Virus genome (UHGV): UHGV-0175639
DNA length: 64,000 nucleotides
Reading direction: 5' to 3' (one strand)
DNA from: a virus
Program-made: the position numbers and the translations under genes
Part shown: piece by piece, positions 1,796-52,504 of the stretch
Position numbering within the stretch: the stretch's first letter is position 1
Layout: each line of letters opens with the position of its first letter
Notes under the pieces: generated by a model
Databases searched by the model: none
What the model saw: the letters and a program-made list of their open reading frames with translations, nothing else
Told to the model about the DNA's origin: nothing

Positions 1796-1815
1796 TACTG
1801 TATACACATACAGTG
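1796..1815. promoter_or_regulatory. LexA (SOS) box TACTGTATACACATACAGTG
   Basis: CTG-N10-CAG with AT-rich core, 17 bp upstream of the UmuD-like start. Confidence 0.7.
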
Positions 1816-15973: not shown

Positions 15974-16133
15974 GTAAGTCTCCTTCTGTTTGGTTACATT
16001 TGCGTTTCGATGGCTGCATTTTGACTAAACCTATCAGGCGGAAAAGTATTAAATACAGGCAGGAAATGATTGAAAGGCGACTGTTCTTTAAAAGAAAGCC
16101 TGCTTCAAACTCTCTTTAAAGCAGGCTTTTGTT

Positions 16134-16691: not shown

Positions 16692-16700
16692 CAGAACTCC

Positions 16701-17120: not shown

Positions 17121-17181
17121 TTTTTATCCTTAACCCATTTTGAGAGTTTTATTGTCGCAATGTCGAAGAGGCGAACAATTT

Positions 17182-18712: not shown

Positions 18713-18713
18713 A

Positions 18714-19844
18714 TCACACCGCCACTGGAACCTTGATCCACGGTAGAGGGGCATAGCCAAGAATAAGAATCTCGTCCCATTTGAAATCATCCAGCTCAGA
18801 CCATTCATTAGGGAATATAACGACCGGATCTGAATGCTCTGGAGCCTGTCGTTGCATTAGCTCACACACACCTTCCATGTGGTTGTTGTACAAATGCACG
18901 TCAAAGCCAAAATGCACAAATGCACCGGCCATGTGACCCGTAATCTTCGCGAGAAAATGAGTGAGAATGCCATAGCCAGCAATATTGAATGGCATACCAA
19001 CAAAAGTGTCTACGCTACGCTGTACGAGGCAGGAGTTGAGGATGCGTTTGGGGATTCCAAGTTCATCCAGTTCAGTTTCAGTAACACTGCCGTCCATCTC
19101 CAGATCGTATAGCATCTTGGTGTAGATAGACTCATAACCGAGGCGACTGTGTTGAAGACCAATGTCAGTTGCCATCGTTAAACGGGTTTCAAAATCAAGC
19201 TCACGACTCCACAAAGAGAAGACAAAGTGGCAAGGTGGCAGTTTCATATCCTCAAGCTCGCCTACGTTCCATGCGTTAAGCATGATGCGACGATCGGTAG
19301 GGTTCGTGCGCAGTGTATCGACAATACGCTGTAGCTGATCGATTTCACGGGACAGCACTACGCGATCTTCACTGATACCCAGGTATCCCTCGACTTTGTA
19401 CCCGCGTTCACGGAAAGTATCGATCTTGCTCAGATATTCACTATGGCTCACGATGCGGGTATCTTCCCATCGACGCCACTGCTTACCGTAAACCGGCCCC
19501 AAATCGCCATTCTCATCGGCCCATGCATCCCAAATCTTAACGCCGTTATCCTTGAGAAATTGGATGTTGCCCGTGCCTTTCAGATACCACTCAAGTTCGA
19601 CAAGTAGTGGCTTAAGATTTACCGCCTTTCCAGAAATAAGCGGCACAGTCCCACCAGTAAGCATGTAGTAAGAGGGAACGTAGCAGGTGCTTAAAGTACC
19701 AGTGCCTGTGCGATCATCAGCCTGCACGCCGCTTTTAAGCACCGTCTCAATAACTTTTGCATACGATGCGTTTGTTACCTGACCGTTCGTATGCTCACGA
19801 TTCAAAAGGAGTGACACAAAAACCTCACAAAGATAAGTAATCAC
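18714..19844 (-). CDS. thyA: thymidylate synthase
   Basis: DRTGTGTLS, DRRIMLNAWN and LPPCH motifs; contiguous ORF. Confidence 0.85.
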   Translation of the reverse strand: MITYLCEVFVSLLLNREHTNGQVTNASYAKVIETVLKSGVQADDRTGTGTLSTCYVPSYYMLTGGTVPLISGKAVNLKPLLVELEWYLKGTGNIQFLKDNGVKIWDAWADENGDLGPVYGKQWRRWEDTRIVSHSEYLSKIDTFRERGYKVEGYLGISEDRVVLSREIDQLQRIVDTLRTNPTDRRIMLNAWNVGELEDMKLPPCHFVFSLWSRELDFETRLTMATDIGLQHSRLGYESIYTKMLYDLEMDGSVTETELDELGIPKRILNSCLVQRSVDTFVGMPFNIAGYGILTHFLAKITGHMAGAFVHFGFDVHLYNNHMEGVCELMQRQAPEHSDPVVIFPNEWSELDDFKWDEILILGYAPLPWIKVPVAV

Positions 19845-19988
19845 TTATTCATTGTGTGAGTTTACATTTATTGAGAGAACAAGACCAGATAGATAAAAAA
19901 ATGGTGGCCACAGGCCACCAAAAACGAATAGTTGTTTCAGAAATTTAACGCGCCAACGCAATATACACAGATAGATAACTACCTACAA

Positions 19989-20858
19989 TTATTTTTTGAT
20001 CATTCCGTACATTGCTGAGGCTTTAGCTTGCTCAACAAAGGAGGATAAATCGACATCACTATAGGTTGGAGACTTCAGAATCTTTCCATCGGAAATTCGA
20101 AAACCGATCATCTTATCGGTGCCATCAGCATGGCGAAATCCCAGGTCAGAAGAGTCGTATTTGCAGTTGGCCACAGCATGGCGACGCTCTTTGGCATCTG
20201 CAGGCCATAATTTTGTCATGTTGGACCGATGAATTTCGCCAACCAGCTCGACGACATTGATACCGAGGAAATCAGCCAGTCGATAGGTCATCATGCACGC
20301 CACATAGATTTTGTTCATTACACGGCGCAGTTCCTGAATCAGCTCAGAATCCTTAACAGTCTTGTTCTCAAGTTTATCTGCCAGCTCTTCGAGCATACAT
20401 GACGCCTCACGAGCTTCCTGAAATGGCATTGCCATATCATCGAAAACAGTGTTACCAGGCACAAAAATTGTCTGCATAAAGCGATCAATGCTCTGTTCCT
20501 GCGTGTAATAAGTCATGCCGGTAGAAATACCACCTTTGATGGCGACCATCGTACCAACACCAACGTATAAAAAGTCGGCCATTGCATCCAGCAGTTGCTC
20601 AATATCCCCATTCATTGCGGCTGGAATACCTTCCACTACAGCTTCTTCATGAATCAGGCTTGCACGGAGACGAAGCAGCTCTGGTGTCGGCATAACGCGT
20701 CTCGGATGCTGGAAGAGTTCATGAAACTGATCGACCATCTTGTAAATACTTTCAGTGGCTACACCATGGCCTTCATGCAACTCATATGGTTCTGGCTTAA
20801 ATCCAATGAGTCGATCGGTGGCAAGTTTCAGGTGGTCAGTCAGTTTGGTAAAGTTCAT
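19989..20858 (-). CDS. hypothetical protein, 289 aa (possible all-alpha nucleotide pyrophosphohydrolase; weak)
   Basis: Position between nrdB and thyA; no firm motif. Confidence 0.45.
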   Translation of the reverse strand: MNFTKLTDHLKLATDRLIGFKPEPYELHEGHGVATESIYKMVDQFHELFQHPRRVMPTPELLRLRASLIHEEAVVEGIPAAMNGDIEQLLDAMADFLYVGVGTMVAIKGGISTGMTYYTQEQSIDRFMQTIFVPGNTVFDDMAMPFQEAREASCMLEELADKLENKTVKDSELIQELRRVMNKIYVACMMTYRLADFLGINVVELVGEIHRSNMTKLWPADAKERRHAVANCKYDSSDLGFRHADGTDKMIGFRISDGKILKSPTYSDVDLSSFVEQAKASAMYGMIKK

Positions 20859-20935
20859 GCTAGTTTTGTTCCTTCTTAATTCTTGTGATCCATTGTGGCC
20901 CAGCGTTGCCAGGCCACATAATGCTTTGTATCGGT

Positions 20936-22078
20936 TTACAGGTCTGCAAACTGGCTTAGAGAAGCCTTATCCACGGTAGAATCGATCTGACCTACCAGAT
21001 ATGTGCTTTGCTCTGCCTCTTGTGGTGCAATTTGCAGTGTGTCGGTTAACAACCACTTGTTCATCCAGACCAGCGGATCAGTGGTAACTTCTGGAAATAA
21101 AGCCTTCAGGCCAAGACGATTCATAGCCAGATTGGTGCGGTATTTTACATACGTTTTGAGAATATCCGCGTTTAAACCAATCATCGAACCATCTTTGAAG
21201 AGATAGTCTGCCCAGTTCATTTCTTGTTCGGCGACTGATTTCATGGTGTCGTAAATGACGTTTTCTTCATCAGCAGCAATCTCTTTCCACAATAAACCTT
21301 CGCGACCGGTACGCATGAAGCGGATCATGCGTTCAGTTCCTTCGCAATGCAGAGCTTCATCACGGGCAATAAAGCGCATAATTTTGGTGTTACCCTCAAG
21401 CAACTTCCGTTCGCCAAAGGCAAAAGTACATGCAAAACTTACATAGAAACGGATCGCCTCAAGTGCATTAATGGACACCAATGTGCGGAAAAGCTGACGG
21501 TGCAAAGGGTATGGCTCCCAGCCATATTCATTTACGTACAGACGCTCAAATTCCTTCTCACCTAACGACTGGCGCTCGCAGGTCATCCCATAAAGCCTGT
21601 CATATTCAGCAGAGATACTGATCGCTCGGTTGATGATTTCTTCATCCGTAACAATACCGTCAAAAACAATGCTCGGATCGTCCACCATGCCACGAATAAT
21701 GTGGGTGTAGCTGCGGCTATGGATAGTCTCAGAGAAAGACCACGTTTCAACCCACGTTTCCAGTTCAGGAATAGAGATAAGCGGCAGCAGCGTTGCATTT
21801 GGGCTACGTCCCTGAACTGAATCGAGTAACGTTTGATAACGGAGATTGCTCAGAAAAATGTGACGTTCGTGGTCCCGCAGCTTCGTGTTGAAGTCGATAC
21901 GATCGCTCGAAATATCAACTTCTTCCGGCCGCCAGAAGAAAGACAATTGACGTTCAATCAACTTTTCAAAATCACGGTATTTTTGCTGATCGTAACGTGC
22001 CACGTTGACAGATTGTCCGAGGAACATAGGCTCTTTGGTTGCATCATTAGCACCCAAACGGAACGTTGAATATGACAT
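20936..22078 (-). CDS. nrdB: ribonucleotide reductase class Ia beta subunit
   Basis: Near-colinear with E. coli NrdB from memory ([25 protein letters not shown], tyrosyl radical region). Confidence 0.95.
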
Positions 22079-39280: not shown

Positions 39281-42200
39281 TCACGTCTTAATGGTTTCTG
39301 CTACGTCGGCTAATATCGCTTCTAGTCGTTCTCCCTCTTCAGGTCTGAAGTAAAGAATGTTGGGGTTAAACCCGTAAAAGACAGTAACGTCAAGGTCTGG
39401 AAGATACTCCTTCCTGCCGACCAAATCGGATGGCTTGTTTTTGTTGTTAAACAATGAAGTTGCCCGGCTGCCACACGTCAGCACATAGGTCGGACGCACC
39501 AGATTGATCTCTTCACGCATAAAGTCGGTGAACTGGCCGATCTCGTCTTTGGTGTAGTCTTTTTCTTTGTCTTTAACCTTCTTGCAAACACCTGTGACAT
39601 AGAGATCGCCCATGCGTAAATCTCCAGCCGTCAATAGCTTGGCCTTAAAGTCGTCGTATCCGTTCTCCATAAAGTAACCGGTTCGAGCATCATTGCCGTT
39701 CGCATTGTCCAGAATGATCATGATTTTCGGCTTAATACCAATGCTGGGGCGGATTAGTTCATCACCTAAGCCCATTTCAGCCGCCATCCGCGTCATGAGT
39801 ACGTTAATTTCAGCCGAACGTTTGGGGTTCATCTCAAACGGACGTGAGGCTTTAACTGCGTCTATGACAAGGTTTCCCATCAATTCAGCCTGGTCGCGTA
39901 GGCGCTCTGGATCAGTTGCTGGCAGACTGCCTGGCTCGATGGATGCAAACGCCCCTACTTTTTGCAGCGATTCGCGCACTCGACTATTACAGGCACGTTT
40001 CTCGACAGCTTCTTCGAATTGCGCCAGTGACTCGAATTTGCCGCCAACTTTTTCTCGCGCTCTCATGATGGCTTGGCAGCCATTCTCAGAACACCCTTTC
40101 ACAGCAGAGAAGGGCGCATACAGCACCTGGCTGCCATCTTCAAGCGTGCGGATCTCGATTCGGTTAGATGACACGTTAACGTCTGGTGGCAATACGCGAA
40201 TACCATAGGTCAGCGCATCTTTAACCAGCCCCTGGTGTTTATCTTCGCCAAGAATAGTGAGAGCAGCAGCGAAGAACTCCGCGGGATAATGAGTTTTCAA
40301 CCACATAGATTGATAACTGATTAAGGAGTAAGCAACAGAGTGTGATTTGTTGAACTGGTAGGCACCATTCTTTTCGAATGCGGTCCAGATCTCCTTCGCT
40401 TTCATCTCTGATAGCCCTGGATGTGACGCTGTAACGCGTACTGCGTTTATAGGTAGTTTTGCGCCGTACTCAAGTGCCTCTTCGACAGTTTTCAGAGTTC
40501 CGTCTTCGCATTTAAAATGTTCCGCACGGTGAATGCGCTGTGTAGTGCCATCTTCCAGCTCAACGTCTATCCAGCCAGCTTGAGCCTGAACGATGAACTT
40601 CTCGCCCATGCTCTTCATTTTTTCCATGTCTTTTTTACCGATCGCTTTACGAACGCCGTCAGCTTCAGCCATTGTGAAGCCAGCAAGCAATCGAGTCGCG
40701 TTCATCGTCTGTTCCTGATAGAGAATCACGCCATTTGTTTCTGCGGTAAGTTCATCAAGAACGGGGTGTAATGATTCCGGCGTCATAAAGCCTTTGGCTA
40801 CAGAAACATAGTCATCCAACATGCCTGACTGAATTGGCCCCGGCCGGAAGAGCGCAGTCGTAGCAACAACCGTTTTAAAGCTCATTGGCTCAATTCCACC
40901 ACCTAAATCTTTAAGCAGCTTGCGCATTGGGCCTGATTCAAGCTGGAAAACACCTTGAGTGTACCCAGCAGCAAAACCATCCAGCACCTTGCGATCTTCA
41001 AGAGAAATGGCATCAAGATTGATATCTTCACCTGTGTTCTCTTTTATGTAGCGTTTTGCACTATCGAGCAAATCGAGAGTTGCCAGACCAAGTACGTCCA
41101 GCTTAATTAGGCCCATAGCCTCGCAGTAACGCTTGTCAAATGCGATACAACGCGCGTCACCACGGCGCTCAACCGGTGTACGTTCTGTTAGAGGAACACC
41201 TGCTACGATCATCCCTGCCGCATGTCTACCAAAGCCACGCATAAGGCTTTGTAACTTGCAGGCTGCATTGAATGCATCAGGATATTTTGTTGCGTATTTG
41301 TCGAGACTTGCCAGTTGTTCGCGCAGCTCTTCCAATGGAAGGCTATCATCCTCGACGTTCTTCAGTTCTTTTGATACCGCCATATCTGCGGACTCCACAC
41401 CATAAATACGAGCGGTGTCACGTAGTGCAGAGGCTGCGCCCAGGTAGGTGAAGTTCGGAATGCCTGCAACGTAATCTTCGCCGTAGCGTTCATTCAGATA
41501 CTCGATCACCTCATGGCGACGTGCCTGGCTGAAGTCCAAGTCCGCATCCGGCAAGTCGAGACGCTCAGGGTTGATGAAACGCTCAAACAGAAGACCGTGA
41601 CGGATTGGGTCGACGTTGGTTATGCCTATGCACCACGCCTCCAGAGAACCGGCAGAGGAACCACGACCAGGCCCGACAGGAATGCCAGTTTCACGGCTGT
41701 GATTCATCAGATCGCGTACCATCAGGAAGTAACCACAGAATCCCAGGCGAGTCAGCGTGTCCATTTCGTACTTTAGCCGCTCAACATAAACCCTGTTCTC
41801 AGAAGCAGGTGGTGTGTATCCAAACTCTTTTGTGGTAAGACGTTTACGCAGCCCTGCAACAGCCAGTTTCATCAGCGTTGCAGGTTCGTCGTCTGCCATC
41901 TTGGGCAGTGCTGGTGGCAATTCATGCCAGCGCCATGTGCAGGCATCGATAATGGAGTCCTGCGTTGTTGAGGCCATTGCAGCTGTTACCGGCACATCCA
42001 TGCGAACGGAGAAGGCTTTAAGCGCCTCAAGGAGATGGCGACGACCATTGATGGCGTTATCTCGCTGGTGGGGGATACGCAGACGATGCGGCTGGTCGAT
42101 TTTTATGTTGTTCGTAACCATGTGCGCAATGTCTTTAATGTCTGCATCGTCGATCGATTCGTAATAAGCGGGATAGAACGCTACTGGCTCTATTTTCAGT

Positions 42201-42799
42201 GCGCTGGCGACTTTCATCGCTCGGACGTTAATCTGGTCGTAGAATGGGGTAGGGTGCGGATAAACCACACTATAGAAGTTGTCTTTCCCGCCCGCTGTAA
42301 TCAGTGAGCTTATGATTTTTGCAAAATCGTTGCGTTGGAACACGCTACCGATGTCGGAAGTGAGCAGGATGATGTTGCCTTTGGCATATGTAGAAACCAA
42401 CTTTTCGAGCGAGAGACGCGGTACAAAGTAGAACTGTTCTCGTGTGTTGGCCACCGTCATTAGTTCGCAGATGTCGCGATATCCTTGCTCATTTTTAATT
42501 AGAGCGGTAAACGAGTAGTTACGTCCCCGCTCTAATGATTCCATACATCTCATAGATTCTTTAGCAAGTTTAGCCCGGTGCTCGTATGTGGGATCATCAA
42601 CAATGTTTAGTTTCACACCACAAATAACCGCCATGTCGTCACCAGCGGCACGTTGTAGTGGAATAACGCTCGCAATATTCATGCTATCTGCTGAAATTAC
42701 AGCGGTGTAGCCAGCTTCTCTGGCAATCTTCACCGCGTTTTCTGCTTTTAGAGCCGACTCCCCAAGTGAGAAGTCAGTTCGAACCATCAGTGCCTTCAT
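39281..42799 (-). CDS. dnaE: DNA polymerase III alpha subunit
   Basis: 1172 aa; N-terminal PHP domain, polymerase core and fingers colinear with DnaE. Confidence 0.9.
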   Translation of the reverse strand: MKALMVRTDFSLGESALKAENAVKIAREAGYTAVISADSMNIASVIPLQRAAGDDMAVICGVKLNIVDDPTYEHRAKLAKESMRCMESLERGRNYSFTALIKNEQGYRDICELMTVANTREQFYFVPRLSLEKLVSTYAKGNIILLTSDIGSVFQRNDFAKIISSLITAGGKDNFYSVVYPHPTPFYDQINVRAMKVASALKIEPVAFYPAYYESIDDADIKDIAHMVTNNIKIDQPHRLRIPHQRDNAINGRRHLLEALKAFSVRMDVPVTAAMASTTQDSIIDACTWRWHELPPALPKMADDEPATLMKLAVAGLRKRLTTKEFGYTPPASENRVYVERLKYEMDTLTRLGFCGYFLMVRDLMNHSRETGIPVGPGRGSSAGSLEAWCIGITNVDPIRHGLLFERFINPERLDLPDADLDFSQARRHEVIEYLNERYGEDYVAGIPNFTYLGAASALRDTARIYGVESADMAVSKELKNVEDDSLPLEELREQLASLDKYATKYPDAFNAACKLQSLMRGFGRHAAGMIVAGVPLTERTPVERRGDARCIAFDKRYCEAMGLIKLDVLGLATLDLLDSAKRYIKENTGEDINLDAISLEDRKVLDGFAAGYTQGVFQLESGPMRKLLKDLGGGIEPMSFKTVVATTALFRPGPIQSGMLDDYVSVAKGFMTPESLHPVLDELTAETNGVILYQEQTMNATRLLAGFTMAEADGVRKAIGKKDMEKMKSMGEKFIVQAQAGWIDVELEDGTTQRIHRAEHFKCEDGTLKTVEEALEYGAKLPINAVRVTASHPGLSEMKAKEIWTAFEKNGAYQFNKSHSVAYSLISYQSMWLKTHYPAEFFAAALTILGEDKHQGLVKDALTYGIRVLPPDVNVSSNRIEIRTLEDGSQVLYAPFSAVKGCSENGCQAIMRAREKVGGKFESLAQFEEAVEKRACNSRVRESLQKVGAFASIEPGSLPATDPERLRDQAELMGNLVIDAVKASRPFEMNPKRSAEINVLMTRMAAEMGLGDELIRPSIGIKPKIMIILDNANGNDARTGYFMENGYDDFKAKLLTAGDLRMGDLYVTGVCKKVKDKEKDYTKDEIGQFTDFMREEINLVRPTYVLTCGSRATSLFNNKNKPSDLVGRKEYLPDLDVTVFYGFNPNILYFRPEEGERLEAILADVAETIKT

Positions 42800-44310: not shown

Positions 44311-46419
44311 TCACTTTAAAATGATACGAGATAGTTCAGTAACTACAGATGAACCAAGACTATCAACGCTCGTTACCAGGGCATGATTTGAGTAAAATCT
44401 CTCCGGTGCGTCAGTCATGATGCCAATTGCCATCAAATCAATATCAGTCTGCGTTTCAATTTGCTTCGCAACTGAACGCAAATGAGCGTCAAAACCTCTC
44501 CCAACAGCCCACGGCGCGCCATCACTCAGAACAAGCATGATCTTCCTGTCCTCCATGCGACCGGAAAATAACGATGCAAGGCTGGCTATGCTTTCACCAT
44601 CCACGTTATTAAGAAGTGGGAATGTGTAGCCTACGCACCCCATACGTGAGCGAACTTCGCGAGAATTTACCTTTTCATTCCAATTTTTGATGATAGGTAG
44701 CATTAAAGATTCAAAGCGAGAGAACTCATACTTGACAGCCTTAAGTTCTCCTGCCGCCATATGACTACCAAATGTAGTGAAGCCGGTGATAATGTTGGGA
44801 ACATTTATTCGATCAAGGGCATCGGCGATGGTATATGCACTTGCAAGAGCCAGTTTAATCGTTATACCACTCATTGAACCTGATAAATCAATCACTTGTT
44901 GAACACAGGCGTTAACGGCTTTAGATTCTTCTTTTTTACGAAACACGCGAGCATCATTCATTGCTAATCTGTAGATACTAGAACCATGAATGCGCCCCCG
45001 ACGCTGGCCCGGTATAAACTGAACTCTGTTTCTGCTTGCTATTGCTCGCTCCAGGTCTTTTGCCAGCGTCGACGAAACACCTGACGAAAGATGCTTTTCA
45101 ATATATTTGTCGAAGAGCTGGTTGCCTTCAGGAACGATGCGATAGCGGCTGATTGGATATCCTCCCAAATCAATATCGGAGAATGTTTTAATAAGCCGTT
45201 TGATATGGGCTTCTGCCTGATCAATCGAGCCGATGAAGTCGTATGAGCGATTGTATGGCCTGTATTCGCTTTTCGAGCTTTCTGTTAACTCGCTTTTAAT
45301 CGTTTCGGATAGCGCATCTTCTGTCATGCCTCCGACTTCATCTTCCATGCTATCCAACTCCTCTAAAGCCTCTTCCAGACTCATTTTTGACGGAGTTGGG
45401 ATATCTGAAGAGCCGTCTTCTGTCGTTTTTCTTTTTTCGTGGTCAGCGGTTAATGATTCTGACGCCGCGTTATCAGAAGCATCAGAATCTGATACCTCTT
45501 TATCATTTTCTGTATCATCGAATATTGTTTCTGATGATTCAGAATTATCTGAATCATCACTGTCGTTATTATCATGTTTGTACTTACTATGTGATTCTGA
45601 TTTGATAGATTTGTAATTATCTAACACTGAGGGAGTCTCATGATCTTCGTTGTCTTCATTGTTTTCTCCAGAGGCATCCGTCTGGTCAGCGTCTGAAGGA
45701 TCGGAAGTTTTTCCCGGAGCTGACTCCTTACCTTTGCTTTCACTTTCAGTGTCTTTGAGGATCTTAGCTATGGTCGCAGCCACCTTTACACAATCCTCGG
45801 TGCAAGACATGTTACGCACGGCCACATCGATACCATGTTCTTTTAATAATGAAATTGGTTTCTCAATGACAGGCCAATGTTCATCCATGAAATCTACGAA
45901 CGGTGCTTGGCCATCCCAGGCTCTTACAACCGGACAGAGAAAGAAGTTTAGAAAAAGCGCGCGCTGATCTTTGCCACAATAAGCAATAGCCTCTGAAGCC
46001 TTTGGTTTAAAGACTTTTTCGATTATAAGGCGCTGAGTTGCCATCAGATTACGTCTTGTTCCGTTAAAGACCTGACCCATTTTTCGCTCGATGAACACGT
46101 CTTCTAAGGCATTCCATAGCGACCAGGAAGGAACGCGTCCTTTTTCTCTCATTTTGTTGGACACACGAATATCGGTAAACAAAATGTGAGCAACCTCATG
46201 ATCGAGAAATCCGCGCACAGCATTCATCAATGCCGGTGTTGCGTTATCCGGGATTGATGGGATGTTTACGAGAATTGGCTCTCCATCATCGTTATAGCGT
46301 ACATAAGCGTCGTCCCCTCGTTCTGCAACAGGGATGTTTTTACCTGAAAGGAGAGCGACTACTCGTTTTACACTGTCACGGAAGTCCTGAACCTCTTTGA
46401 TGGAACGTTTTTTAGACAT
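44311..46419 (-). CDS. CobT-like protein with C-terminal VWA domain
   Basis: MIDAS-like DLSGSM motif; long acidic D/E/S linker. Confidence 0.7.
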   Translation of the reverse strand: MSKKRSIKEVQDFRDSVKRVVALLSGKNIPVAERGDDAYVRYNDDGEPILVNIPSIPDNATPALMNAVRGFLDHEVAHILFTDIRVSNKMREKGRVPSWSLWNALEDVFIERKMGQVFNGTRRNLMATQRLIIEKVFKPKASEAIAYCGKDQRALFLNFFLCPVVRAWDGQAPFVDFMDEHWPVIEKPISLLKEHGIDVAVRNMSCTEDCVKVAATIAKILKDTESESKGKESAPGKTSDPSDADQTDASGENNEDNEDHETPSVLDNYKSIKSESHSKYKHDNNDSDDSDNSESSETIFDDTENDKEVSDSDASDNAASESLTADHEKRKTTEDGSSDIPTPSKMSLEEALEELDSMEDEVGGMTEDALSETIKSELTESSKSEYRPYNRSYDFIGSIDQAEAHIKRLIKTFSDIDLGGYPISRYRIVPEGNQLFDKYIEKHLSSGVSSTLAKDLERAIASRNRVQFIPGQRRGRIHGSSIYRLAMNDARVFRKKEESKAVNACVQQVIDLSGSMSGITIKLALASAYTIADALDRINVPNIITGFTTFGSHMAAGELKAVKYEFSRFESLMLPIIKNWNEKVNSREVRSRMGCVGYTFPLLNNVDGESIASLASLFSGRMEDRKIMLVLSDGAPWAVGRGFDAHLRSVAKQIETQTDIDLMAIGIMTDAPERFYSNHALVTSVDSLGSSVVTELSRIILK

Positions 46420-46517
46420 GGCTAATCCTTTGTTATGAAAACAAATTATTTACTAGTGTGTTTAATGTAGCACTGCGCGAACAGGGAACTAAGCCATTCG
46501 CGCAGGGAGAAGAGGGG

Positions 46518-46730
46518 TTAACAGATTCTGACGGCTAAAGACCCGGAGCCGATATTGAGAAGCGTGAAGCGTTTGTTGTTAAGTTCGAATATAAAGCCAG
46601 TTGTGTCATTCACACCAACCTGAATCTGCTCATTCGGTAGATCGGTGAGGATGTCAGCTACACACTCATCAGCTAATTTCTGTACGTGTCCGATCTCAAG
46701 AGCGATTAGGCTGGAAATAGTGGTGTTCAT
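46518..46730 (-). CDS. hypothetical protein, 70 aa
   Basis: ORF only. Confidence 0.35.
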   Translation of the reverse strand: MNTTISSLIALEIGHVQKLADECVADILTDLPNEQIQVGVNDTTGFIFELNNKRFTLLNIGSGSLAVRIC

Positions 46731-46980
46731 TCAATCAATCCATTCTAACTTATACTATGGTAAGGAATACTACTAAAATTTATATCAATACTGAATACAT
46801 TCATATCATATGCAAGTTAATTTTCTTACCTGTTTTGGGCTAATTTTTCTCCGTGCAATGGCCTTTAACCGGTCTTTTAAGTGCCTATCGAAAAAATGAT
46901 AATAGCTTTACAACCCTAACCTTTGATGTAATATCGGTAAGCACTTACCAGAGAGAATTGAACGCGCAAAGGTTGTAACA

Positions 46981-47367
46981 ATGTCTGACAACAAGATTGA
47001 ATTTATAGAAAGTCGCTATGCTGCTTTTATCGCAGGGCTGATTGAATCCTCACCTATGAGTCAGGCCCAAATAGCCAGACTTATTGGTTATAAAAATGCC
47101 AACAACCTTTCTTTAATTAAAAGTGGCAAAATTCCTTTGCCTATCGATAAGGTTCGTCCGTTGGCGCTGGCGCTGGGTATTGAGCCAAGTCGTCTTATGA
47201 TGATGGTGCTGGAAGAACGCCAACCTGAACTCGCAGCATTTTTATACAAAGAAGGCACCGCTCCTCTTAACGAGGACGAAAAACAGGTTCTTGCTGCATA
47301 TAACGAGCGATTCGGTAAAGAGAAAGGCGCATCACAAAAGGTTGTTGAGGCCATAAAGTCTCTATGA
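46981..47367 (+). CDS. HTH (Cro/C1-type) transcriptional regulator
   Basis: SQAQIARLIGYKNANNLSLIKSG helix-turn-helix; convergent with the recombinase. Confidence 0.6.
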   Translation: MSDNKIEFIESRYAAFIAGLIESSPMSQAQIARLIGYKNANNLSLIKSGKIPLPIDKVRPLALALGIEPSRLMMMVLEERQPELAAFLYKEGTAPLNEDEKQVLAAYNERFGKEKGASQKVVEAIKSL

Positions 47368-48465
47368 AAAATTTACACGAATAAGCTCTGTTGATAGACG
47401 ATCTCCCTTGAATTTGTGGTCAATTTCGTCTAAATCCGGTTGCTCTACGATTGATGCGATGTACGTCGAGAAACTTTCTAAGGCGTCTCGCATCTCGTCC
47501 ATATAATCGTGCCGGTCGTAGACTCGATCTATCCCCTCAAGACTGTGGTTCATGATTTTGCGTGATACCTCCTGGCTTATGCCTAATGCTGGGAAGTAAC
47601 TACGCGCAGTACGGCGCAAGTCTCGGGGTGTAAATGGCTCAAGCTCCATCAGTTCTGGTCGTTCCAGGATACGACGTAATGCCTGGGCTATTGCCACTTT
47701 AGACATAGGAAGGTCTTTCCCGATTTTTTTATTCGAAGGCACGAGCCACTGGCTGCCTTTACCGTATTCGAACAACTCTTCAATACATGTGCGCATTAAT
47801 GTGCTTAAAGGCAGCGAATGCTCACGGGCAGATTTGTTCCTCTTGCCTTGATTCCAAACCCCACGCTTAAGATTGAACTCACTTTTTTTAGCCCGCAGTA
47901 CTTCGTCAGGTCGTCTTGCGGATACAAGACACAGCCTGGCCGCCCATTTTGTACCAGCGCACACATTGAAGTAGTCCCATATATTCCAGAACACCCATAC
48001 CTCTGCGTCGGTCAGCTTCCGCTCGCGAGGTGTGGGCTTTGCGCCACCGGCAACTTTGTTTAGTGACATATCGTTTAACGGTGACACGTCTATCATCCCC
48101 TGGAAGGCGCACCAGCTAAGGAACTGCTTCATCAGAGAGAAAACGCGGCGGCCCATAACAATTTTGCCATCCAGTATTAGTGGGTTGACCAGTTGGTTCA
48201 CCATGAACCTATTAATGTCACTTACTTTTACATCGGCAATGTGCGGCAAAACATGTATCAAAATACAATGAACAGCGATCTCTGGCCGACGTCTTGTTAT
48301 CAGCAGAGATAAGCGAGTGAATAACATGAATGCGTCCGAGAATCTCATGTCATTGCTGACCTGCGAGATCATAACGGCCTGCATTTGAGATGCTCTTTCG
48401 AGATACTCAATCGCCTCTTTTGAGGTGTTCTCCGCAGCGCGTGCTCTGTCAAAGCTATTTTTCAT
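47362..48465 (-). CDS. tyrosine site-specific recombinase
   Basis: Conserved Arg and LRRT box and C-terminal VYDRHDY tyrosine region. Confidence 0.8.
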   Translation of the reverse strand: MKNSFDRARAAENTSKEAIEYLERASQMQAVMISQVSNDMRFSDAFMLFTRLSLLITRRRPEIAVHCILIHVLPHIADVKVSDINRFMVNQLVNPLILDGKIVMGRRVFSLMKQFLSWCAFQGMIDVSPLNDMSLNKVAGGAKPTPRERKLTDAEVWVFWNIWDYFNVCAGTKWAARLCLVSARRPDEVLRAKKSEFNLKRGVWNQGKRNKSAREHSLPLSTLMRTCIEELFEYGKGSQWLVPSNKKIGKDLPMSKVAIAQALRRILERPELMELEPFTPRDLRRTARSYFPALGISQEVSRKIMNHSLEGIDRVYDRHDYMDEMRDALESFSTYIASIVEQPDLDEIDHKFKGDRLSTELIRVNFS

Positions 48466-48563
48466 ATGACAATCACCGAGTTACGCCGATTCACTGTATA
48501 AGTAAACAGTATATTAGGCATAGATTCTTATAGGATCAAGAGTAAAAGTAACTCATTTTCAGT

Positions 48564-48596
48564 AATGATTCCATACATAGTAGGTATGGAATCATT
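48564..48596. repeat. candidate recombination core site AATGATTCCATAC-ATAGTAG-GTATGGAATCATT
   Basis: Perfect 13-bp inverted repeats around a 7-bp spacer, about 100 bp upstream of the recombinase start; half-site copies at 51259-51271 and 52281-52293. Confidence 0.6.
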
Positions 48597-48675
48597 TTGA
48601 CGTTGTTTTTTGAATTTTAAGGGAAATGGGAGTGAGTTTGGTGGGAATAAAAACGGCTCCTGTGAGCCGTTAAAA

Positions 48676-48921
48676 TCAGAGGGTGCTGACGTATGCAGCC
48701 AGTTCTGTGTATCCGCCAATCGGCTGGCCATCGATCAGCACCTGGGGGATAGTCTCTACCGGTTTACCAACAATTTCACTTAGTTTTTCCTTGTTGATAC
48801 CGGCAGTGGTGATGTCGATGTACTCATAATCACCGTAGCCATGTCCCTTTAGTTGCTTCGCCAGCTCGACCGCACGTTTGCAGTATGAGCAGTTATCTCG
48901 TCCGTAGATAGTGATCGTCAT
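48676..48921 (-). CDS. glutaredoxin-like protein (NrdH/Grx)
   Basis: 81 aa from MTITIYGRDNCSYCKRA; CxxC thioredoxin-fold motif; GAGG RBS. Confidence 0.7.
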   Translation of the reverse strand: MTITIYGRDNCSYCKRAVELAKQLKGHGYGDYEYIDITTAGINKEKLSEIVGKPVETIPQVLIDGQPIGGYTELAAYVSTL

Positions 48922-49095
48922 TGTTACCTCATAGAATTGATATGCAACTTTACTTACAAAGAAGATAGGTATGTGCATACTTATCTTTGCAGTCTGCATT
49001 ATAAAGCTATTAAAGCCTCGATCAATCTATTAATTAAGGCATTGTTTGGTTAACATTAGCCTAATAATTTATAGTTAGTAGAGTGAAATACATAC

Positions 49096-50358
49096 ATGCC
49101 TTTTTTAATTTTCATTATTATACTACTGCTCACCGTTATTTTTTGGGATTGGGTTGTTTTAAATGGTCAAACTGTTGGAACATTGGCTACAGCATTTGCT
49201 TTTATAGCAACAGCATGGAATGCCTACGAAGCGAGAAAAAGTGCAAAAGCAGCTTTTTCAGCCCTTCAATTAACAACTGAATCATTGTTCGAAATGCGAA
49301 AGAGTGCATTTAAACAATGGTTTGATTCCTTATTAAATCAACATGATGCGTTATGTCTTCTTGCAAAACAAATTATCGATAAACACAAAATTAATTTAAA
49401 CAGCGATGAGTTACATAGACTCTATTACCCATTGGTAAAACAGCATGAGGTAATACAGTATGTGAAGCATATTATTAATATATTTGAGTATGTGGATAGT
49501 TCATTTTATATTGATGGGGAATGTCTCAAGGAAAAAAGAGCGTATGTATCACAATTAATTTTTAAAATCCCACCTCAGATGAAGTTGATCATTGCTATCT
49601 TTGGATTAAAAATCGATTATTGTGAACATATTAATTCGGAAAAACTGTGTTGTTTATTGAATAAATATGATTTTTTCAATGATGAAATATTTTTTGATGA
49701 TGCTTATTCAAATATGCCTTATCTGGATACATTCATAAACCTTAGATTCAATAAAATATTCAAATCTCGAATGATAAATTATTTTGATAATATCATTAAA
49801 AGTTATTATGTTCCATCGGACGTTAAAAGGGACTGGATGTTTCGACGCCCACAGCTCGTACCGTCGGTTCTTATGAATTATAAAACTCCTTGTTCTCCTA
49901 TAATTAATGATTACTTTGAGAAGTTGCCTTTACATGTAAGAAACTACTTTGAGGAACAACTTAAAACCGCGAATGATAGAGTTACTCATTTTGACGTTTA
50001 CATCCCACGCCTTATTGGTTGTTCAATCGTGCAACATTACGAAGATGTGCCTTCCGAAAAAAACAGGTTAAATGACAGGAATGATGTAATAGCTATGGCT
50101 GAAGATTACATCGAGAAAAGAAAATCTAATCAACTAGATTACATACTTGAAGATATATACTTCAAGAGTGACGAAGATATAATCCCAGGCCACCATTTGA
50201 TTGTGGCATTTGATGACTATGAATTTAAATTATCACTCATTAAGATAAATGAGAATAAAGATAGCGATAATCTTTTAAATCGAATTTATACTGAATCCAG
50301 TAGCATGGTTAAAGAATATAAGCGCGAAATATTAAAACTGGGCGACTATGTAAAGTAA
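49096..50358 (+). CDS. membrane-anchored protein, 420 aa, unknown function
   Basis: Two N-terminal TM helices then a long soluble domain; conspicuously AT-rich by eye; own terminator. Confidence 0.6.
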   Translation: MPFLIFIIILLLTVIFWDWVVLNGQTVGTLATAFAFIATAWNAYEARKSAKAAFSALQLTTESLFEMRKSAFKQWFDSLLNQHDALCLLAKQIIDKHKINLNSDELHRLYYPLVKQHEVIQYVKHIINIFEYVDSSFYIDGECLKEKRAYVSQLIFKIPPQMKLIIAIFGLKIDYCEHINSEKLCCLLNKYDFFNDEIFFDDAYSNMPYLDTFINLRFNKIFKSRMINYFDNIIKSYYVPSDVKRDWMFRRPQLVPSVLMNYKTPCSPIINDYFEKLPLHVRNYFEEQLKTANDRVTHFDVYIPRLIGCSIVQHYEDVPSEKNRLNDRNDVIAMAEDYIEKRKSNQLDYILEDIYFKSDEDIIPGHHLIVAFDDYEFKLSLIKINENKDSDNLLNRIYTESSSMVKEYKREILKLGDYVK

Positions 50359-50549: not shown

Positions 50550-50636
50550 CTGGCGGAGAGTAATGGAATCGAACCATCATCGTTTGCACAATGGAACGGT
50601 TTTCAAGACCGCTTGAGCACCATGCTCCCTACTCTC
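50550..50636 (-). tRNA. tRNA-Ser (anticodon UGA), long variable arm, CCA encoded
   Basis: Manual fold: acceptor GGAGAGU/ACUCUCC, anticodon loop CUUGAAA, T-loop GGTTCGATTCC. Confidence 0.65.
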
Positions 50637-50827
50637 CAGCTATTGTGATGGTCGGTACTGAACTCCGACACAGGGTTGTAGCAAGCCCCGCAAAGCGCGC
50701 ACTACTGTAGTTGCGGCACATCAGCCTGTGCATTCATCACAACGGTAAGAGCACTGGTCTGACTCTATCGATTTACGGCCTTGTGGGTCAGTATCGCCGA
50801 TTCGCCCAATGCTCTTACCTGTTGTGT

Positions 50828-50903
50828 TGGTGCCGGTTAACGGACTTGAACCGCTGGCCATTCGCTTACAAAGCGACTGCTCTACCAACTGAGCTAAACC
50901 GGC
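50828..50903 (-). tRNA. tRNA-Thr (anticodon UGU), CCA encoded
   Basis: Manual fold: acceptor GCCGGUU/AACCGGC, D-arm AGCTCAGTTGGTAGAGC, anticodon loop UUUGUAA. Confidence 0.6.
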
Positions 50904-50907
50904 AATT

Positions 50908-50994
50908 TGGTGGGGAGTGATGGAGTCGAACCACCCGAGTCGCCATGACAGTAGATTTACAGTCTACACCGCTACCTCTACGGACTAACTCCCC
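50908..50994 (-). tRNA. tRNA-Tyr (anticodon GUA), long variable arm, CCA encoded
   Basis: Manual fold: acceptor GGGGAGU/ACUCCCC, anticodon stem-loop GUAGA-CUGUAAA-UCUAC. Confidence 0.6.
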
Positions 50995-50999
50995 TAAAT

Positions 51000-51074
51000 T
51001 GGCGATGGTGGGTGGATTCGAACCACCGACCAGTTGGTTAACAGCCAACTGCTCTACCGCTGAGCTACACCATC
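51000..51074 (-). tRNA. tRNA-Asn (anticodon GUU), CCA encoded
   Basis: Manual fold: acceptor GAUGGUG/CACCAUC, anticodon stem-loop GUUGG-CUGUUAA-CCAAC, T-loop GGTTCGAATCC. Confidence 0.65.
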
Positions 51075-51852
51075 AATTCAGCACTGCCAGTATTTATTAC
51101 TCAACAGTGCCAATCGCGACGGTTTAGTTTCTGCCAGGAAACGCACCGCTACTTGCACTTTTCGTTAGTGCCAGACGCTTTCGACTTCGCTCAATAGTAG
51201 AAGGCAAAATCTTTAAGTAGATGATGTTTCTGAGGACAGCACCTACTTTGTAATTTATACTATGTGATGTATGGAATCATTTGTTGTGAAAACAGGCACC
51301 AATGGCAACAGTGGTTAAACCTACACAACAATCCCGTCTTCACAACGTTGAGGCCACTACTCCGATTGAATGTTTGCCCAACATGTTACATATCAACGTT
51401 CGCCGGTATCTCTGTGAATAGAACCTTAGAATTGATAAAAATGTAATGGCCTCAACGTTGTGTGCTGGCTAACCATACCAGCCGGGCTACGTCGCCGCTT
51501 TTTAACCCAGTATAAACGACATAATTGAACAAAATGACGTAACAGGATGGGCGGTCAGTGGCTAAGAATCCGGGAGTCATATGGAGTTGAAAATATACCA
51601 ACCGCCCATTCTGTTACTTCATCGGAGGGAACATGAATGTTCCCTCCTGCGTTCTGCAATCACACTCGCTCAGTGTGTCCCATTTCGGTAACGAGGCTGG
51701 AAACTGACCTCGCTGGTGTTTGGCTTATTAGGCTACTGCCAGATAGACTTCTTCGTTTGCACTTGTATTTAAGTTCAAACAGTCGCGTCTCAACGAAAAC
51801 AAAGTCATCTTATACACAAAAGATAAGTAAGTAAATACTTATCAATATGTTT

Positions 51853-52143: not shown

Positions 52144-52292
52144 TTTTTCACCTTTGTTTCATGAACTACCCGATACACACGCTTTCCGATGCACAGTGTT
52201 TTGGTTTTAAGTTCCTGCTTAATTAAATCACGACAGATGCCGAAGCCGATAAGGAAGCCACCCATAAAAGCTAATGAGATGTATGGAATCAT
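52140..52292 (-). CDS. small membrane protein, 50 aa
   Basis: MIPYISLAFMGGFLIGFGIC...; translationally coupled on both sides. Confidence 0.35.
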   Translation of the reverse strand: MIPYISLAFMGGFLIGFGICRDLIKQELKTKTLCIGKRVYRVVHETKVKK

Positions 52293-52504
52293 TTTAACAC
52301 TCCTGATTCTACTAATTGCTGTAGCAATACTTTCCCTTTATCAGTTAACTGGTAGTTGGCCGAACACCACGTTTCAGAAACGTTTGCAACCAACCCTAAA
52401 CGCTCTAACTTAGCTCGCGTTTTAGGCTTCCAGTACTCAGGGAACTCCGGCCACTTACTGATTTCATGAAGCGTTTCCTTCTCCCGTTTACTTAATACGA
52501 TCAT
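52289..52504 (-). CDS. hypothetical protein, 71 aa
   Basis: ORF coupled to neighbours. Confidence 0.45.
   Translation of the reverse strand: MIVLSKREKETLHEISKWPEFPEYWKPKTRAKLERLGLVANVSETWCSANYQLTDKGKVLLQQLVESGVLK

What the first reader, a model, noticed from the sequence alone, without database searches (positions are those of the whole stretch)
47362..48596. Tyrosine recombinase with an adjacent perfect 13-7-13 palindromic site and dispersed half-site copies
A perfect lox/FRT/dif-like architecture lies about 100 bp upstream of the recombinase gene. The 13-mer GTATGGAATCATT recurs at 51259-51271 and 52281-52293, unlikely by chance for three copies within 4 kb. This suggests a resolution or integration system with its cognate site, possibly with accessory sites; the site could alternatively be an operator.
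Basis: seen in the sequence. Interest (0 to 1): 0.6.

Follow-up and report, generated by a model that had tools for sequence, protein, structure and literature searches.

The report
Phage-plasmid recombinase with lox-like site
An SSU5/pHCM2-type phage-plasmid of E. coli carries an uncharacterised tyrosine recombinase next to its own lox/FRT-like 13-7-13 DNA site, a pairing kept across many enterobacterial plasmids, and the system most likely keeps the plasmid as single circles, although no recombination has yet been shown.

Summary
The palindrome AATGATTCCATAC-ATAGTAG-GTATGGAATCATT is at 48564-48596, 98 bp upstream of a 367-aa tyrosine recombinase gene (48465→47362). The window is an SSU5/pHCM2/pMT1-type phage-plasmid.

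- **Dispersed copies:** That makes five exact copies against 0.003 expected.
- **Cognate pair:** in about 180 related loci the site always sits beside int. The arms never vary, while the 7-bp spacer varies and occurs in both orientations.
- **Co-variation:** recombinases 44-50% identical, including some on non-phage megaplasmids, carry the same architecture with altered arms (TGACTCCAGAC). A Photorhabdus site is intermediate.
- **Not an integrase:** there is one full site per replicon, 0 of 255 E. coli occurrences are chromosomal, and no arm-binding domain is present.
- **Exchange point:** eight unrelated sequences abut the distal arm at the same nucleotide.
- **Regulation:** a conserved LexA box overlaps the int promoter.

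Best reading: a Cre/lox-like multimer-resolution and exchange system under SOS control. It is a new member of a known kind. The conserved half-sites, which show nucleotide-level selection and point toward the palindrome, remain unexplained.

The parts
47362..48465 (-). int: 367-aa tyrosine recombinase with core-binding and catalytic domains and no arm-binding domain. Inferred catalytic residues are R185, K211, R281 (at the usual His-I position), R284, H307 and Y316.
   Evidence: Pfam PF00589 6.8e-10. PHROG 1, integrase. These residues are invariant in 22 homologues down to 42% identity. AlphaFold model has pLDDT 81.7. Best structural matches are lambda Int 75-356, Tn1549 Int and Xer.
48564..48596 (.). 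Core site: two perfect inverted 13-bp arms (AATGATTCCATAC) around the asymmetric A/T-rich 7-bp spacer ATAGTAG. This is the presumed Int binding and strand-exchange site.
   Evidence: Arms are invariant and the spacer variable in 73 + 111 related loci. Arms co-vary with the Int clade.
48597..48625 (.). Semi-conserved distal extension: about 9 variable G/C-rich bp, then a T6-8 tract followed by GAA(T/A). It is found next to the distal arm in most lineages even though the sequence beyond it is unrelated.
   Evidence: Ungapped identity rises slightly, to 0.42, at -11..-30, against 0.26-0.33 in the surrounding sequence. It is absent in Y. pestis pMT1. Function unknown.
48511..48539 (-). Putative int promoter: -35 TTGATC (48539-48534), 17-bp spacer, -10 TAATAT (48516-48511). 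The -35 lies 24 bp from the proximal arm.
   Evidence: Read. Both hexamers are conserved across E. coli, Klebsiella, Kluyvera and Yersinia lineages. Not experimentally mapped.
48492..48511 (-). LexA (SOS) box TACTGTTTACTTATACAGTG, overlapping the -10 and the likely transcription start of int.
   Evidence: CTGT-N8-ACAG found at 48494-48509. Conserved in the class-1 Enterobacteriaceae/Yersinia lineages. Absent in more distant relatives. The only other box in the window precedes a umuD-like gene.
42534..42549 (+). Half-site AATGATTCCATAC+ATC inside dnaE (codons about 84-89, read as ..R-C-M-E-S-L.. on the - strand).
   Evidence: TGTATGGAATCATT is the longest invariant run in a 900-nt codon alignment of 44 unique sequences and includes 3 degenerate third positions, whereas only 18% of third positions are invariant overall.
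51266..51281 (-). Half-site A, in non-coding DNA between the tRNA cluster and a conserved structured element. It lies just downstream of the -10 of a conserved + strand promoter-like site (AGGACA-17-TATACT, 51233-51261), about where that promoter would start transcription.
   Evidence: The motif is conserved while its flanks diverge, and a -35/-10 pair sits at the same distance in other lineages (TTGATG-17-TCTTAT; TTGAGG-16-TCTAAT).
52278..52293 (-). Half-site B, which coincides with the start codon and first codons (M-I-P-Y-I) of a 50-aa membrane-protein ORF (52292→52140).
   Evidence: Conserved at the nucleotide level, synonymous positions included, while neighbouring codons and the RBS vary.
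47848..47859 (+). Degenerate copy TTGATTCCAAAC inside int (codons V-W-N-Q). In other lineages it is a near-perfect half-site, TTGATTCCATACATC.
   Evidence: It is decaying in the E. coli lineage and may be a by-product of conserved amino acids.

Best explanation
The 367-aa protein is an active, 'simple' tyrosine recombinase, and the 13-7-13 palindrome 98 bp upstream of its gene is its core recombination site. One monomer would bind each 13-bp arm, and strand exchange would occur across the 7-bp asymmetric spacer, as in Cre/loxP or FLP/FRT.

The element is always an extrachromosomal, low-copy phage-plasmid with a single full site. The main job of the pair is therefore to interconvert plasmid multimers and monomers. 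That means resolving dimers for stable inheritance, and possibly acting on replication products after SOS induction. The int promoter carries a LexA box, so recombinase supply should rise with DNA damage.

Recombination at the same site between co-resident relatives explains why unrelated DNA abuts the distal arm at a fixed nucleotide.

Shown: the anatomy, the co-occurrence, the co-variation, the plasmid-only distribution and the junction pattern. Inferred: binding, catalysis, the direction of the reaction and LexA control.
For: 1. The architecture and catalytic residues are intact.
2. The site lies at -97 to -131 from the int start in all 72 close loci. Of 111 further palindromes found by pattern scan, 105 have int adjacent. 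Five of the other six lie at cut locus ends, and one has a group-II-intron-like insertion between site and int.
3. The arms are invariant and the spacer takes at least 14 forms. Three spacer forms occur in both orientations, as expected if only the arms are recognised and the orientation of a lone site is irrelevant.
4. Co-variation: Int proteins at 56-100% identity have arms TGATTCCATAC. Int proteins at 44-50% identity (Xenorhabdus, Providencia, Erwinia, Rahnella, Pantoea) have TGACTCCAGAC at the same place. Photorhabdus has a hybrid.
5. In Erwinia, Rahnella and Pantoea replicons, int and the site are the only shared features.
6. There is one full site per replicon. All 255 places in 252 of 5,426 complete E. 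coli genomes are on plasmids.
7. No arm-binding domain is present, whereas more distant homologues have PF13356.
8. Among 8 E. coli-clade flank types, identity is 1.00 in the palindrome and 0.94 on the int side, and drops to 0.33 in the first 10 bp beyond the distal arm.
9. The LexA box is conserved over the -10. Int is not among the genes expressed during lysogeny in Cyrano (PMC9928086).
Against: - No experiment shows binding or recombination, and the papers searched do not describe the site.
- LexA control is unusual for a housekeeping resolvase, and it is absent from distant relatives.
- The His-I position carries Arg; that activity is retained is an inference.
- The sharp homology break could partly reflect selection that simply forbids changes inside the arm.
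- A semi-conserved extension beyond the distal arm and the conserved dispersed half-sites are not features of a minimal lox-like system.
- One class-2 palindrome (L214) has no recognisable int nearby.
Confidence: 0.62

Rival explanations
1. The palindrome is only a regulatory binding site, either an operator or an activator site for the int promoter. It would be bound by Int itself (autoregulation) or by another protein, and no recombination would take place there.
For: The site lies 24 bp upstream of the -35 of the int promoter at a fixed distance. The F-plasmid resolvase is also a repressor at its own site (from memory, not checked here). Half-site A sits at the start of another promoter-like element.
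Against: The site does not overlap the promoter hexamers. Arms of 13 bp with a 7-bp unconstrained spacer fit a recombinase core site better than an HTH operator. The neighbouring HTH gene has its own, unrelated palindromes (GGTAAG-N2-CTTACC) upstream, and that region holds no copy of the motif. The palindrome persists where the HTH gene is absent. All catalytic residues are conserved. Homology breaks fall exactly at the arm edge. Regulation and recombination are not mutually exclusive.
Confidence: 0.13
2. SOS-induced multimer maker. After induction, Int joins monomer circles at the site to build concatemers for headful packaging, or circularises incoming DNA. Dimer resolution during lysogeny would not be its main role.
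For: The LexA box lies over the int promoter. int sits in the early/replication gene block. Cyrano is induced by ciprofloxacin, and int is not among its lysogeny-expressed genes. Simple recombinases are reversible (general knowledge).
Against: Homologues with the same site occur on megaplasmids that have no phage genes, and distant phage-plasmid relatives lack the LexA box. The site is about 50 kb from the terminase genes. The packaging mode of this phage group was not examined.
Confidence: 0.12
3. Integron-like capture: Int inserts circular cargo at the palindrome, which would generate the variable region next to it.
For: A variable cargo region of 1.2-5.6 kb starts at the distal arm. It holds a highly expressed moron in Cyrano, toxin-antitoxin and colicin genes in Xenorhabdus, and the caf1 operon in pMT1. 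Like integron integrases, int appears to be LexA-controlled.
Against: Neither a second full site nor a degenerate one bounds the cargo: there are no copies with 1-2 mismatches and each contig has one palindrome. The resistance genes in this region sit in Tn3-family transposons and a class 1 integron, several kb from the site. The far boundary of the variable region is a tRNA gene, not a site.
Confidence: 0.07
4. Phage integrase with attP: Int integrates the element into a host chromosome.
For: The gene is annotated 'integrase', and its distant homologues are P4/CP4-57-type integrases.
Against: 0 of 255 places in complete E. coli genomes are chromosomal. The literature reports these elements only as plasmids (PMC9600943). 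There is no arm-binding domain. The site is a perfect symmetric palindrome and has no arm-type repeats.
Confidence: 0.03
5. The repeats act at the RNA level: the palindrome is a hairpin, and the dispersed copies are antisense pairing partners. For example, an RNA starting at half-site A would pair with the start of the 50-aa ORF, like a type I toxin-antitoxin pair.
For: A + strand promoter-like site would place GAUGUAUGGAAUCAU at the 5' end of a transcript, and that sequence is complementary to the RBS/start of the 50-aa membrane-protein ORF. The dnaE and int mRNAs carry the same sense of the motif.
Against: The palindrome arms are invariant in sequence rather than showing compensatory changes. 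The palindrome follows int into plasmids that lack these genes. Variants at the dispersed sites are not compensatory. No terminator follows the hairpin. This idea could still apply to the dispersed copies alone.
Confidence: 0.05

Closest known systems
Cre / loxP of phage-plasmid P1
   Same: Both are tyrosine recombinases encoded on a phage-plasmid with a single site. The site has two 13-bp inverted arms around a short asymmetric spacer. No accessory arm sites or arm-binding domain are involved. Cre's role is multimer resolution (PMC7969092).
   Different: There is no detectable sequence relationship, and the structural match is only weak (Foldseek E about 0.3, against 8e-7 for lambda Int). The spacer is 7 bp rather than 8 (the loxP figure is from memory). 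The int promoter has a LexA box. A distal T-tract extension and conserved dispersed half-sites are present.
FLP / FRT of the yeast 2-micron plasmid
   Same: A plasmid-borne system with 13-bp inverted arms around a short spacer. From memory, the FRT arm GAAGTTCCTATAC resembles AATGATTCCATAC (8 of 13, both ending ATAC at the spacer), and FRT has a third arm copy.
   Different: FLP is a eukaryotic plasmid enzyme from a different branch of the superfamily. Its spacer is 8 bp. Its extra arm is adjacent to the core, not kilobases away. The sequence resemblance was not tested and is probably coincidental.
ResD / rfsF of F and Rsd / crs of Salmonella virulence plasmids (plasmid-encoded tyrosine resolvases)
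   Same: These are low-copy enterobacterial plasmids whose recombinase gene lies next to its site. The F protein is reported to be both a resolvase and a repressor (from memory).
   Different: Their sites have a different make-up, for example the direct repeats in crs (from memory).
Lambda Int / Tn1549 Int / Xer recombinases (structural neighbours)
   Same: They share the core-binding plus catalytic two-domain fold (TM about 0.55-0.7 on the target, probability 1.0). The H307-to-Y316 spacing matches that of lambda Int (inference).
   Different: Sequence identity is 11-19%. The arm-binding N-domain of lambda Int and P4-type integrases is missing. Arg replaces His-I. The site is a perfect palindrome, not an attP or dif.
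Integron integrase IntI / attI
   Same: LexA-repressed expression of a tyrosine recombinase (from memory for IntI; a sequence-level inference here). Variable cargo starts at the site.
   Different: There are no attC-like sites or cassette structure. The structural match is weaker than to lambda Int.

Membership tests
Tyrosine recombinase superfamily (PF00589) | Profile match above the curated threshold, and the catalytic-domain fold | tested here: met
   PF00589 scores 39.4 bits against a cut-off of 27.1. Foldseek probability is 1.0 to lambda Int, Tn1549 Int, XerH, XerA and IntI.
Tyrosine recombinase superfamily (PF00589) | Catalytic R-K-H-R-H/W-Y set | tested here: inconclusive
   R185, K211, R284, H307 and Y316 are invariant in 22 homologues. 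The first His position is an invariant Arg (R281). The assignment rests on motif alignment, not on a structural superposition. Topoisomerase IB has Lys at that position (from memory), so activity is plausible.
Simple (Cre/FLP-type) recombinase-site systems | Core site made of two inverted arms of about 13 bp around an asymmetric spacer of 6-8 bp | tested here: met
   13-7-13 at 48564-48596. The same architecture is present in all relatives.
Simple (Cre/FLP-type) recombinase-site systems | No arm-type sites and no arm-binding domain; the core site alone suffices | tested here: inconclusive
   No PF13356 domain is found, and the N-terminus is predicted helical. However, a semi-conserved distal extension exists, and whether the core alone suffices cannot be tested here.
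Simple (Cre/FLP-type) recombinase-site systems | Recombinase-dependent strand exchange within the spacer | not testable with these tools
   Only indirect evidence is available: homology between close relatives breaks exactly at the arm edge.
Cre family proper | Sequence or close structural homology to Cre | tested here: not met
   No PDB sequence hit. Cre chains match only at Foldseek E 0.3-0.7.
Plasmid multimer-resolution systems | A single site per replicon, in cis with the recombinase, on extrachromosomal replicons | tested here: met
   One palindrome per contig and per complete plasmid. All 255 places are on plasmids and none on chromosomes. The pair also occurs on non-phage plasmids of about 0.1-0.5 Mb.
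Plasmid multimer-resolution systems | Loss of the system raises multimer content and lowers stability | not testable with these tools
   This needs genetics. The copy number of the relative Cyrano is about 5.5 (PMC9928086).
Integrative phage Int / attP | Integrated copies with hybrid att sites; arm-binding domain and arm sites | tested here: not met
   No chromosomal copies. No arm-binding domain. NCBIfam PRK09692 scores 33 bits against a cut-off of 434.
Integron | Cassettes bounded by attC-type sites next to attI | tested here: not met
   No second or degenerate site lies in or at the end of the variable region. Cargo arrives on transposons.
LexA regulon member | An SOS box (TACTGT-N8-ACAGTA) overlapping the promoter, and LexA-dependent expression | tested here: inconclusive
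   The box TACTGTTTACTTATACAGTG lies over the -10 and is conserved in the clade. CTGT-N8-ACAG is expected about once per window by chance. Expression was not tested.
Operator of the adjacent HTH repressor | The motif is present at the repressor's own promoter and overlaps regulated promoters; the site co-occurs with the repressor gene | tested here: not met
   The switch region 46731-46980 has different palindromes and no copy of the motif. The site persists without the HTH gene.

The most novel reading that the evidence does not exclude
The exact half-sites (TGATTCCATAC-ATC) are functional monomer-binding sites for the same recombinase. They lie in dnaE, at the start of a promoter-like element and on the start codon of a small membrane protein. 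They are kept by selection at synonymous positions, and all point toward the core site. Together they would form a polar array of single arms around a lox-like core. Through them an SOS-induced recombinase would also act as a regulator, a roadblock for early or replication genes, or a guide for synapsis. No Cre/FLP/Xer-type system is known to have such a layout.
Probability: 0.2. Interest if true: 0.75.

Novelty: new member of a known kind. Interest (0 to 1): 0.5.

Why it matters
**How common the elements are.** These phage-plasmids occur in 252 of 5,426 complete E. coli genomes. The same int-site module was found in 837 PLSDB plasmid records from Klebsiella, Enterobacter, Salmonella and Yersinia, the latter including pMT1 of Y. 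pestis.

**What sits next to the site.** The region beginning at the site is their plastic cargo zone. It carries resistance genes in Enterobacter and the F1 capsule operon in pMT1.

**What the definition makes possible.**
- The 'integrase' annotation becomes testable as a maintenance and exchange function.
- Part of the mosaicism of these elements gains an explanation.
- Stability becomes a possible target.
- A family of natural recombinase/site pairs becomes available, with two arm specificities and many spacer variants. Such pairs could serve as orthogonal genome-engineering tools unrelated to Cre.

Tried and rejected
- **Chance:** rejected.
- **Operator of the adjacent HTH protein:** its own control region has other palindromes and no copy of the motif.
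- **Intrinsic terminator:** the stem is A/T-rich, no T-run directly follows it, and the scan does not call it. The grx terminator lies at 48652-48671.
- **Replication terminus or fork trap centred on the site:** there is no GC-skew inflection at 48.5 kb, and the repB replicon lies only about 19 kb away. This was not pursued further.
- **Cargo capture leaving scar sites:** there are no degenerate copies.
- **Half-sites paired with degenerate partner arms:** inspection of the flanks showed no second arm.
- **Covariation among the dispersed sites:** none. Only single ATC→ACC changes were seen.
- **Record with two int copies (Y. pestis NZ_CP033700):** it is a linear assembly that over-runs the circle and is uninformative.
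- **My reconstruction of the whole plasmid from pTW10722_119:** the ends did not join. The window lacks that plasmid's IS100 insertion in dnaE, so the window comes from a close relative.
- **Structure and family databases:** the PDB sequence search with the single protein found nothing, and the profile gave only marginal hits.
- **Literature:** searches for the site sequence and for a resolution function in SSU5-like elements found nothing relevant. One 2026 preprint on phage-plasmid heteroresistance could not be opened.
- **IHF or other accessory-protein consensus in the distal extension:** none was recognised by eye.
Full report
**What the window is**

The region 46400-49100 is 100% identical to E. 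coli plasmid pTW10722_119 and 98-99.6% identical to about 190 other E. coli plasmids of 105-120 kb. It is 97-99% identical to Escherichia phages CMS-2020a and Cyrano. Cyrano is the SSU5-like phage-plasmid of strain LF82 (PMC9928086).

The gene content matches that family: cobT/cobS-like genes, dnaE, glutaredoxin, ligase, primase, helicase, repB, a parA-like gene and tail genes. The window therefore comes from an SSU5/pHCM2/pMT1-type phage-plasmid.

**The observation**

The perfect palindrome AATGATTCCATAC-ATAGTAG-GTATGGAATCATT lies at 48564-48596. It is 98 bp upstream of the ATG (48465) of a 367-aa ORF on the minus strand.

Exact copies of the 13-mer also lie at three other places:
- 51269-51281.
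- 52281-52293.
- 42534-42546, in opposite orientation inside dnaE.

Five exact copies stand against 0.003 expected. There are no copies with one or two mismatches, and copies with three or four mismatches occur at shuffle level. The set is sharply defined and not a chance occurrence. The remaining ~56 kb of a near-identical plasmid has no further copy.

**The protein**

- It matches Pfam Phage_integrase above threshold and PHROG 1.
- An alignment of 22 homologues down to 42% identity keeps R185, K211, R284, H307 and Y316 invariant. An invariant Arg (R281) sits where most family members have the first His. These assignments come from motif alignment.
- The AlphaFold model (pLDDT 81.7) best matches lambda Int residues 75-356, Tn1549 Int and Xer proteins. 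Cre matches only marginally.
- The N-terminal ~55 residues are helical. The arm-binding domain PF13356 appears only in more distant, longer homologues.
- The protein is thus a two-domain recombinase of the Xer/Cre type in layout, but from a branch with no solved or characterised close relative.

**Is the palindrome its site?**

Four lines of comparison say yes.

*Co-occurrence.* All 72 loci retrieved through the protein (Int 56-100% identical) have the palindrome 97-131 bp upstream of int. A separate pattern scan for the palindrome found 111 sites. Of these, 105 had int adjacent, five were too close to the end of the stored stretch to tell, and one has a group-II-intron-like insertion between the LexA box and int.

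*Pattern of constraint.* The arms never vary. The spacer takes at least 14 forms, all A/T-rich and mostly CTANNNN in one orientation or the other. Three forms are found in both orientations relative to int: CTATTAA/TTAATAG, TCTATAG/CTATAGA and TTATATA/TATATAA. This is what is expected if a protein reads the arms, the spacer need only match its partner, and the orientation of a lone site has no consequence. The flips themselves could arise by template switching at a perfect inverted repeat, so they do not prove recombinase action.

*Co-variation.* Recombinases 44-50% identical to this one carry the same 7-bp-spacer palindrome with 11-13-bp arms 50-136 bp upstream of the gene, but the arms read TGACTCCAGAC. 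These come from Xenorhabdus, Providencia, Erwinia, Rahnella, Pantoea and seven viral contigs. The Photorhabdus site (Int 48%) is an imperfect hybrid, TGACTCCAGAT-TTTATAG-GTCTGGAATCA.

*Independence from context.* In the Erwinia plasmid and the ~0.5-Mb Rahnella and Pantoea replicons, the neighbours are ordinary metabolic, transport or T6SS genes. Only int and the palindrome are shared. One class-2 palindrome (L214) has no recognisable int nearby, in a stretch without long ORFs.

**What the pair does**

- There is one full site per replicon.
- Among 5,426 complete E. coli genomes the module occurs in 252. All 255 places are on plasmids and none on a chromosome. This agrees with the statement that these elements are exclusively extrachromosomal (PMC9600943).
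- A symmetric core, the lack of an arm-binding domain and the lack of chromosomal copies together argue against a phage-integration role. They fit a multimer-resolution role like Cre/loxP in P1 (PMC7969092).
- No other site-specific recombinase is annotated in the close relatives. Cyrano's copy number is about 5.5.

**Evidence for exchange at the site**

Eight different sequence types abut the distal arm among E. coli-clade elements that share the same spacer. Mean ungapped identity between these types is:

| Region | Identity |
|---|---|
| Palindrome | 1.00 |
| Next 100 bp toward int | 0.94 |
| First 10 bp beyond the distal arm | 0.33 |
| -11 to -30 | 0.42 |
| Further out | about 0.26 |

These figures are; the underlying sequences are. 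BLAST alignments to Klebsiella, Enterobacter, Salmonella and Yersinia relatives also end at window 48595-48597.

Illegitimate replacements would be expected to leave variable lengths of old flank. A fixed junction at the arm edge is what recombination through the spacer between site-bearing relatives would produce. The small rise at -11 to -30 reflects a semi-conserved T-tract element (48597-48625). Most incoming flanks also carry it, which suggests they came from other site-bearing molecules. Selection against damage to the arm could contribute to the sharpness, so this evidence is supportive rather than decisive.

**The variable region**

The 1.2-5.6 kb between the palindrome and the tRNA cluster differs between relatives. 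It holds:
- a 420-aa protein of unknown function here;
- a gene expressed 723-fold above background in Cyrano lysogens;
- toxin-antitoxin and colicin genes in Xenorhabdus;
- the caf1 capsule operon in pMT1.

Resistance genes in an Enterobacter relative lie a few kb further out, in Tn3-type transposons and a class 1 integron. No second or degenerate site bounds this region. I therefore reject integron-like cassette capture as the main mechanism.

**Regulation**

Between the palindrome and int lies TTGATC-17-TAATAT. It is followed by TACTGTTTACTTATACAGTG, a close match to the LexA box consensus that overlaps the -10. The hexamers and the CTGT-N8-ACAG core are conserved across the E. coli, Klebsiella, Kluyvera and Yersinia lineages. 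They are absent from the Nissabacter, Xenorhabdus and Providencia relatives.

The only other such box in the window is a textbook one in front of a umuD-like gene. Int is not among the genes expressed in Cyrano lysogens. SOS control is therefore a reasonable inference. It is unusual for a resolvase and leaves room for a role after induction, which is listed as the rival 'multimer maker'.

**The dispersed half-sites**

The three dispersed copies share the longer form (A/G)TGATTCCATAC-ATC. They sit at orthologous positions in every class-1 phage-plasmid lineage examined, down to Serratia (Int 59%) and Nissabacter (Int 60%), although their flanks diverge. Yersinia pMT1 keeps only the dnaE copy.

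- *In dnaE.* The run TGTATGGAATCATT is the longest invariant stretch in a 900-nt codon alignment of 44 unique sequences. It spans three degenerate third positions, whereas only 18% of third positions are invariant overall. The flanking codons change amino acid.
- *Half-site B.* It is the start codon and first four codons of a 50-aa membrane-protein ORF.
- *Half-site A.* It lies just downstream of the -10 of a + strand promoter-like element that is conserved in position across lineages.

All copies left of the palindrome point right and all copies right of it point left, the same polarity as the arms. That is four sites, so about 1 in 8 by chance. A further near-copy inside int is decaying in the E. 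coli lineage.

Class-2 relatives have no dispersed copies of either arm type within 10 kb. Variants at the sites are not compensatory.

The simplest reading is that Int monomers bind these single arms. What that achieves is unknown, and an RNA-pairing role for the dispersed copies cannot be excluded. They are too far from the core (2.7-6 kb) to be classical accessory sites.

**Comparison with known systems**

In mechanism and layout this resembles Cre/loxP, FLP/FRT and the plasmid resolvases of F and the Salmonella virulence plasmids. It is not a member of the Cre family, nor of the P4-type integrases. The papers searchable here do not describe the site or assign the gene a function.

I classify it as a new member of a known kind. 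Its unusual features are apparent SOS control, a distal extension, and conserved polar half-sites. Overall confidence that the palindrome is the recombinase's recombination site is high (about 0.8). Confidence that its main role is multimer resolution or exchange on the plasmid is moderate (about 0.6).

Noticed in passing
window 51456-51845: A non-coding element of about 400 nt between the tRNA cluster and a 96-aa ORF is more conserved than the surrounding genes across lineages that are about 74% identical elsewhere. RNAalifold finds a structure with 8-9 compensatory pairs on either strand, and there are weak sub-threshold Rfam hits to tmRNA models on the - strand. It could be a structured RNA or a lytic origin.
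   Followed up: partly
window 51233-51261 (+): A promoter-like site, AGGACA-17-TATACT, would start transcription at half-site A. Its position is conserved in other lineages (TTGATG-17-TCTTAT; TTGAGG-16-TCTAAT). A transcript from it would run antisense toward the 96-aa and 50-aa ORFs.
   Followed up: partly
window 1796-1815 and ORF 1390-1779 (-): A near-consensus LexA box, TACTGTATGTGTATACAGTA, lies directly upstream of a umuD-like S24 peptidase gene, as with humD in P1.
   Followed up: partly
window 46731-46980: A divergent control region lies between a 70-aa ORF (-) and the 128-aa HTH gene (+), which is called the putative repressor in Cyrano. It holds GGTAAG..CTTACC palindromes, including GGTAAGCACTTACC at about 46937-46950, and is probably the immunity switch. 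The HTH gene and int overlap tail to tail by 6 bp.
   Followed up: partly
L203 (Y. pestis pMT1) 15393-21281; L006: In pMT1 the F1 capsule operon (caf1R/M/A/caf1) occupies the cargo slot next to the palindrome. The caf1 terminator is about 50 bp from the distal arm, and the usual T-tract extension is missing.
   Followed up: no
window 48597-48602 and 48558-48563, compared across E. coli-clade loci: The 2-6 nucleotides immediately outside both arms vary among elements that are otherwise at least 98% identical nearby: AC/GC/AG/CG/GG on the int side, and gtcAA/gtcTA/ggcTA/atcTA on the distal side. In L042 the flanks extend the palindrome to 15-7-15.
   Followed up: no
L153 about 13200-13500: A sequence that begins like a group II intron (GTGCGCC...) is inserted between the LexA box and int in a Klebsiella-type element.
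   Followed up: no
L014, dnaE codons about 82-87: A 9-bp tandem duplication (ATGAGATGT ATGAGATGT) directly abuts the dnaE half-site.
   Followed up: no
window 50551-51074 (-): A cluster of four tRNA genes (Ser-TGA, Thr-TGT, Tyr-GTA, Asn-GTT). Only tRNA-Asn is shared with the Klebsiella relative, and the cluster forms the far edge of the variable region.
   Followed up: no
window 39281-42799 (-) compared with L001, L084, L088, L206: dnaE is intact here (1172 aa). It is interrupted by IS100 in pTW10722_119, and it is split or accompanied by HNH or LAGLIDADG genes in other relatives. Inteins or homing endonucleases also sit in the cobS-like and recA-like genes of relatives.
   Followed up: no
L214 5271-5299: A class-2 palindrome (TGACTCCAGAC-CTCGTGA-GTCTGGAGTCA) has no recognisable recombinase gene within 5 kb, in a stretch with no long ORFs. 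It may be a decayed locus.
   Followed up: partly
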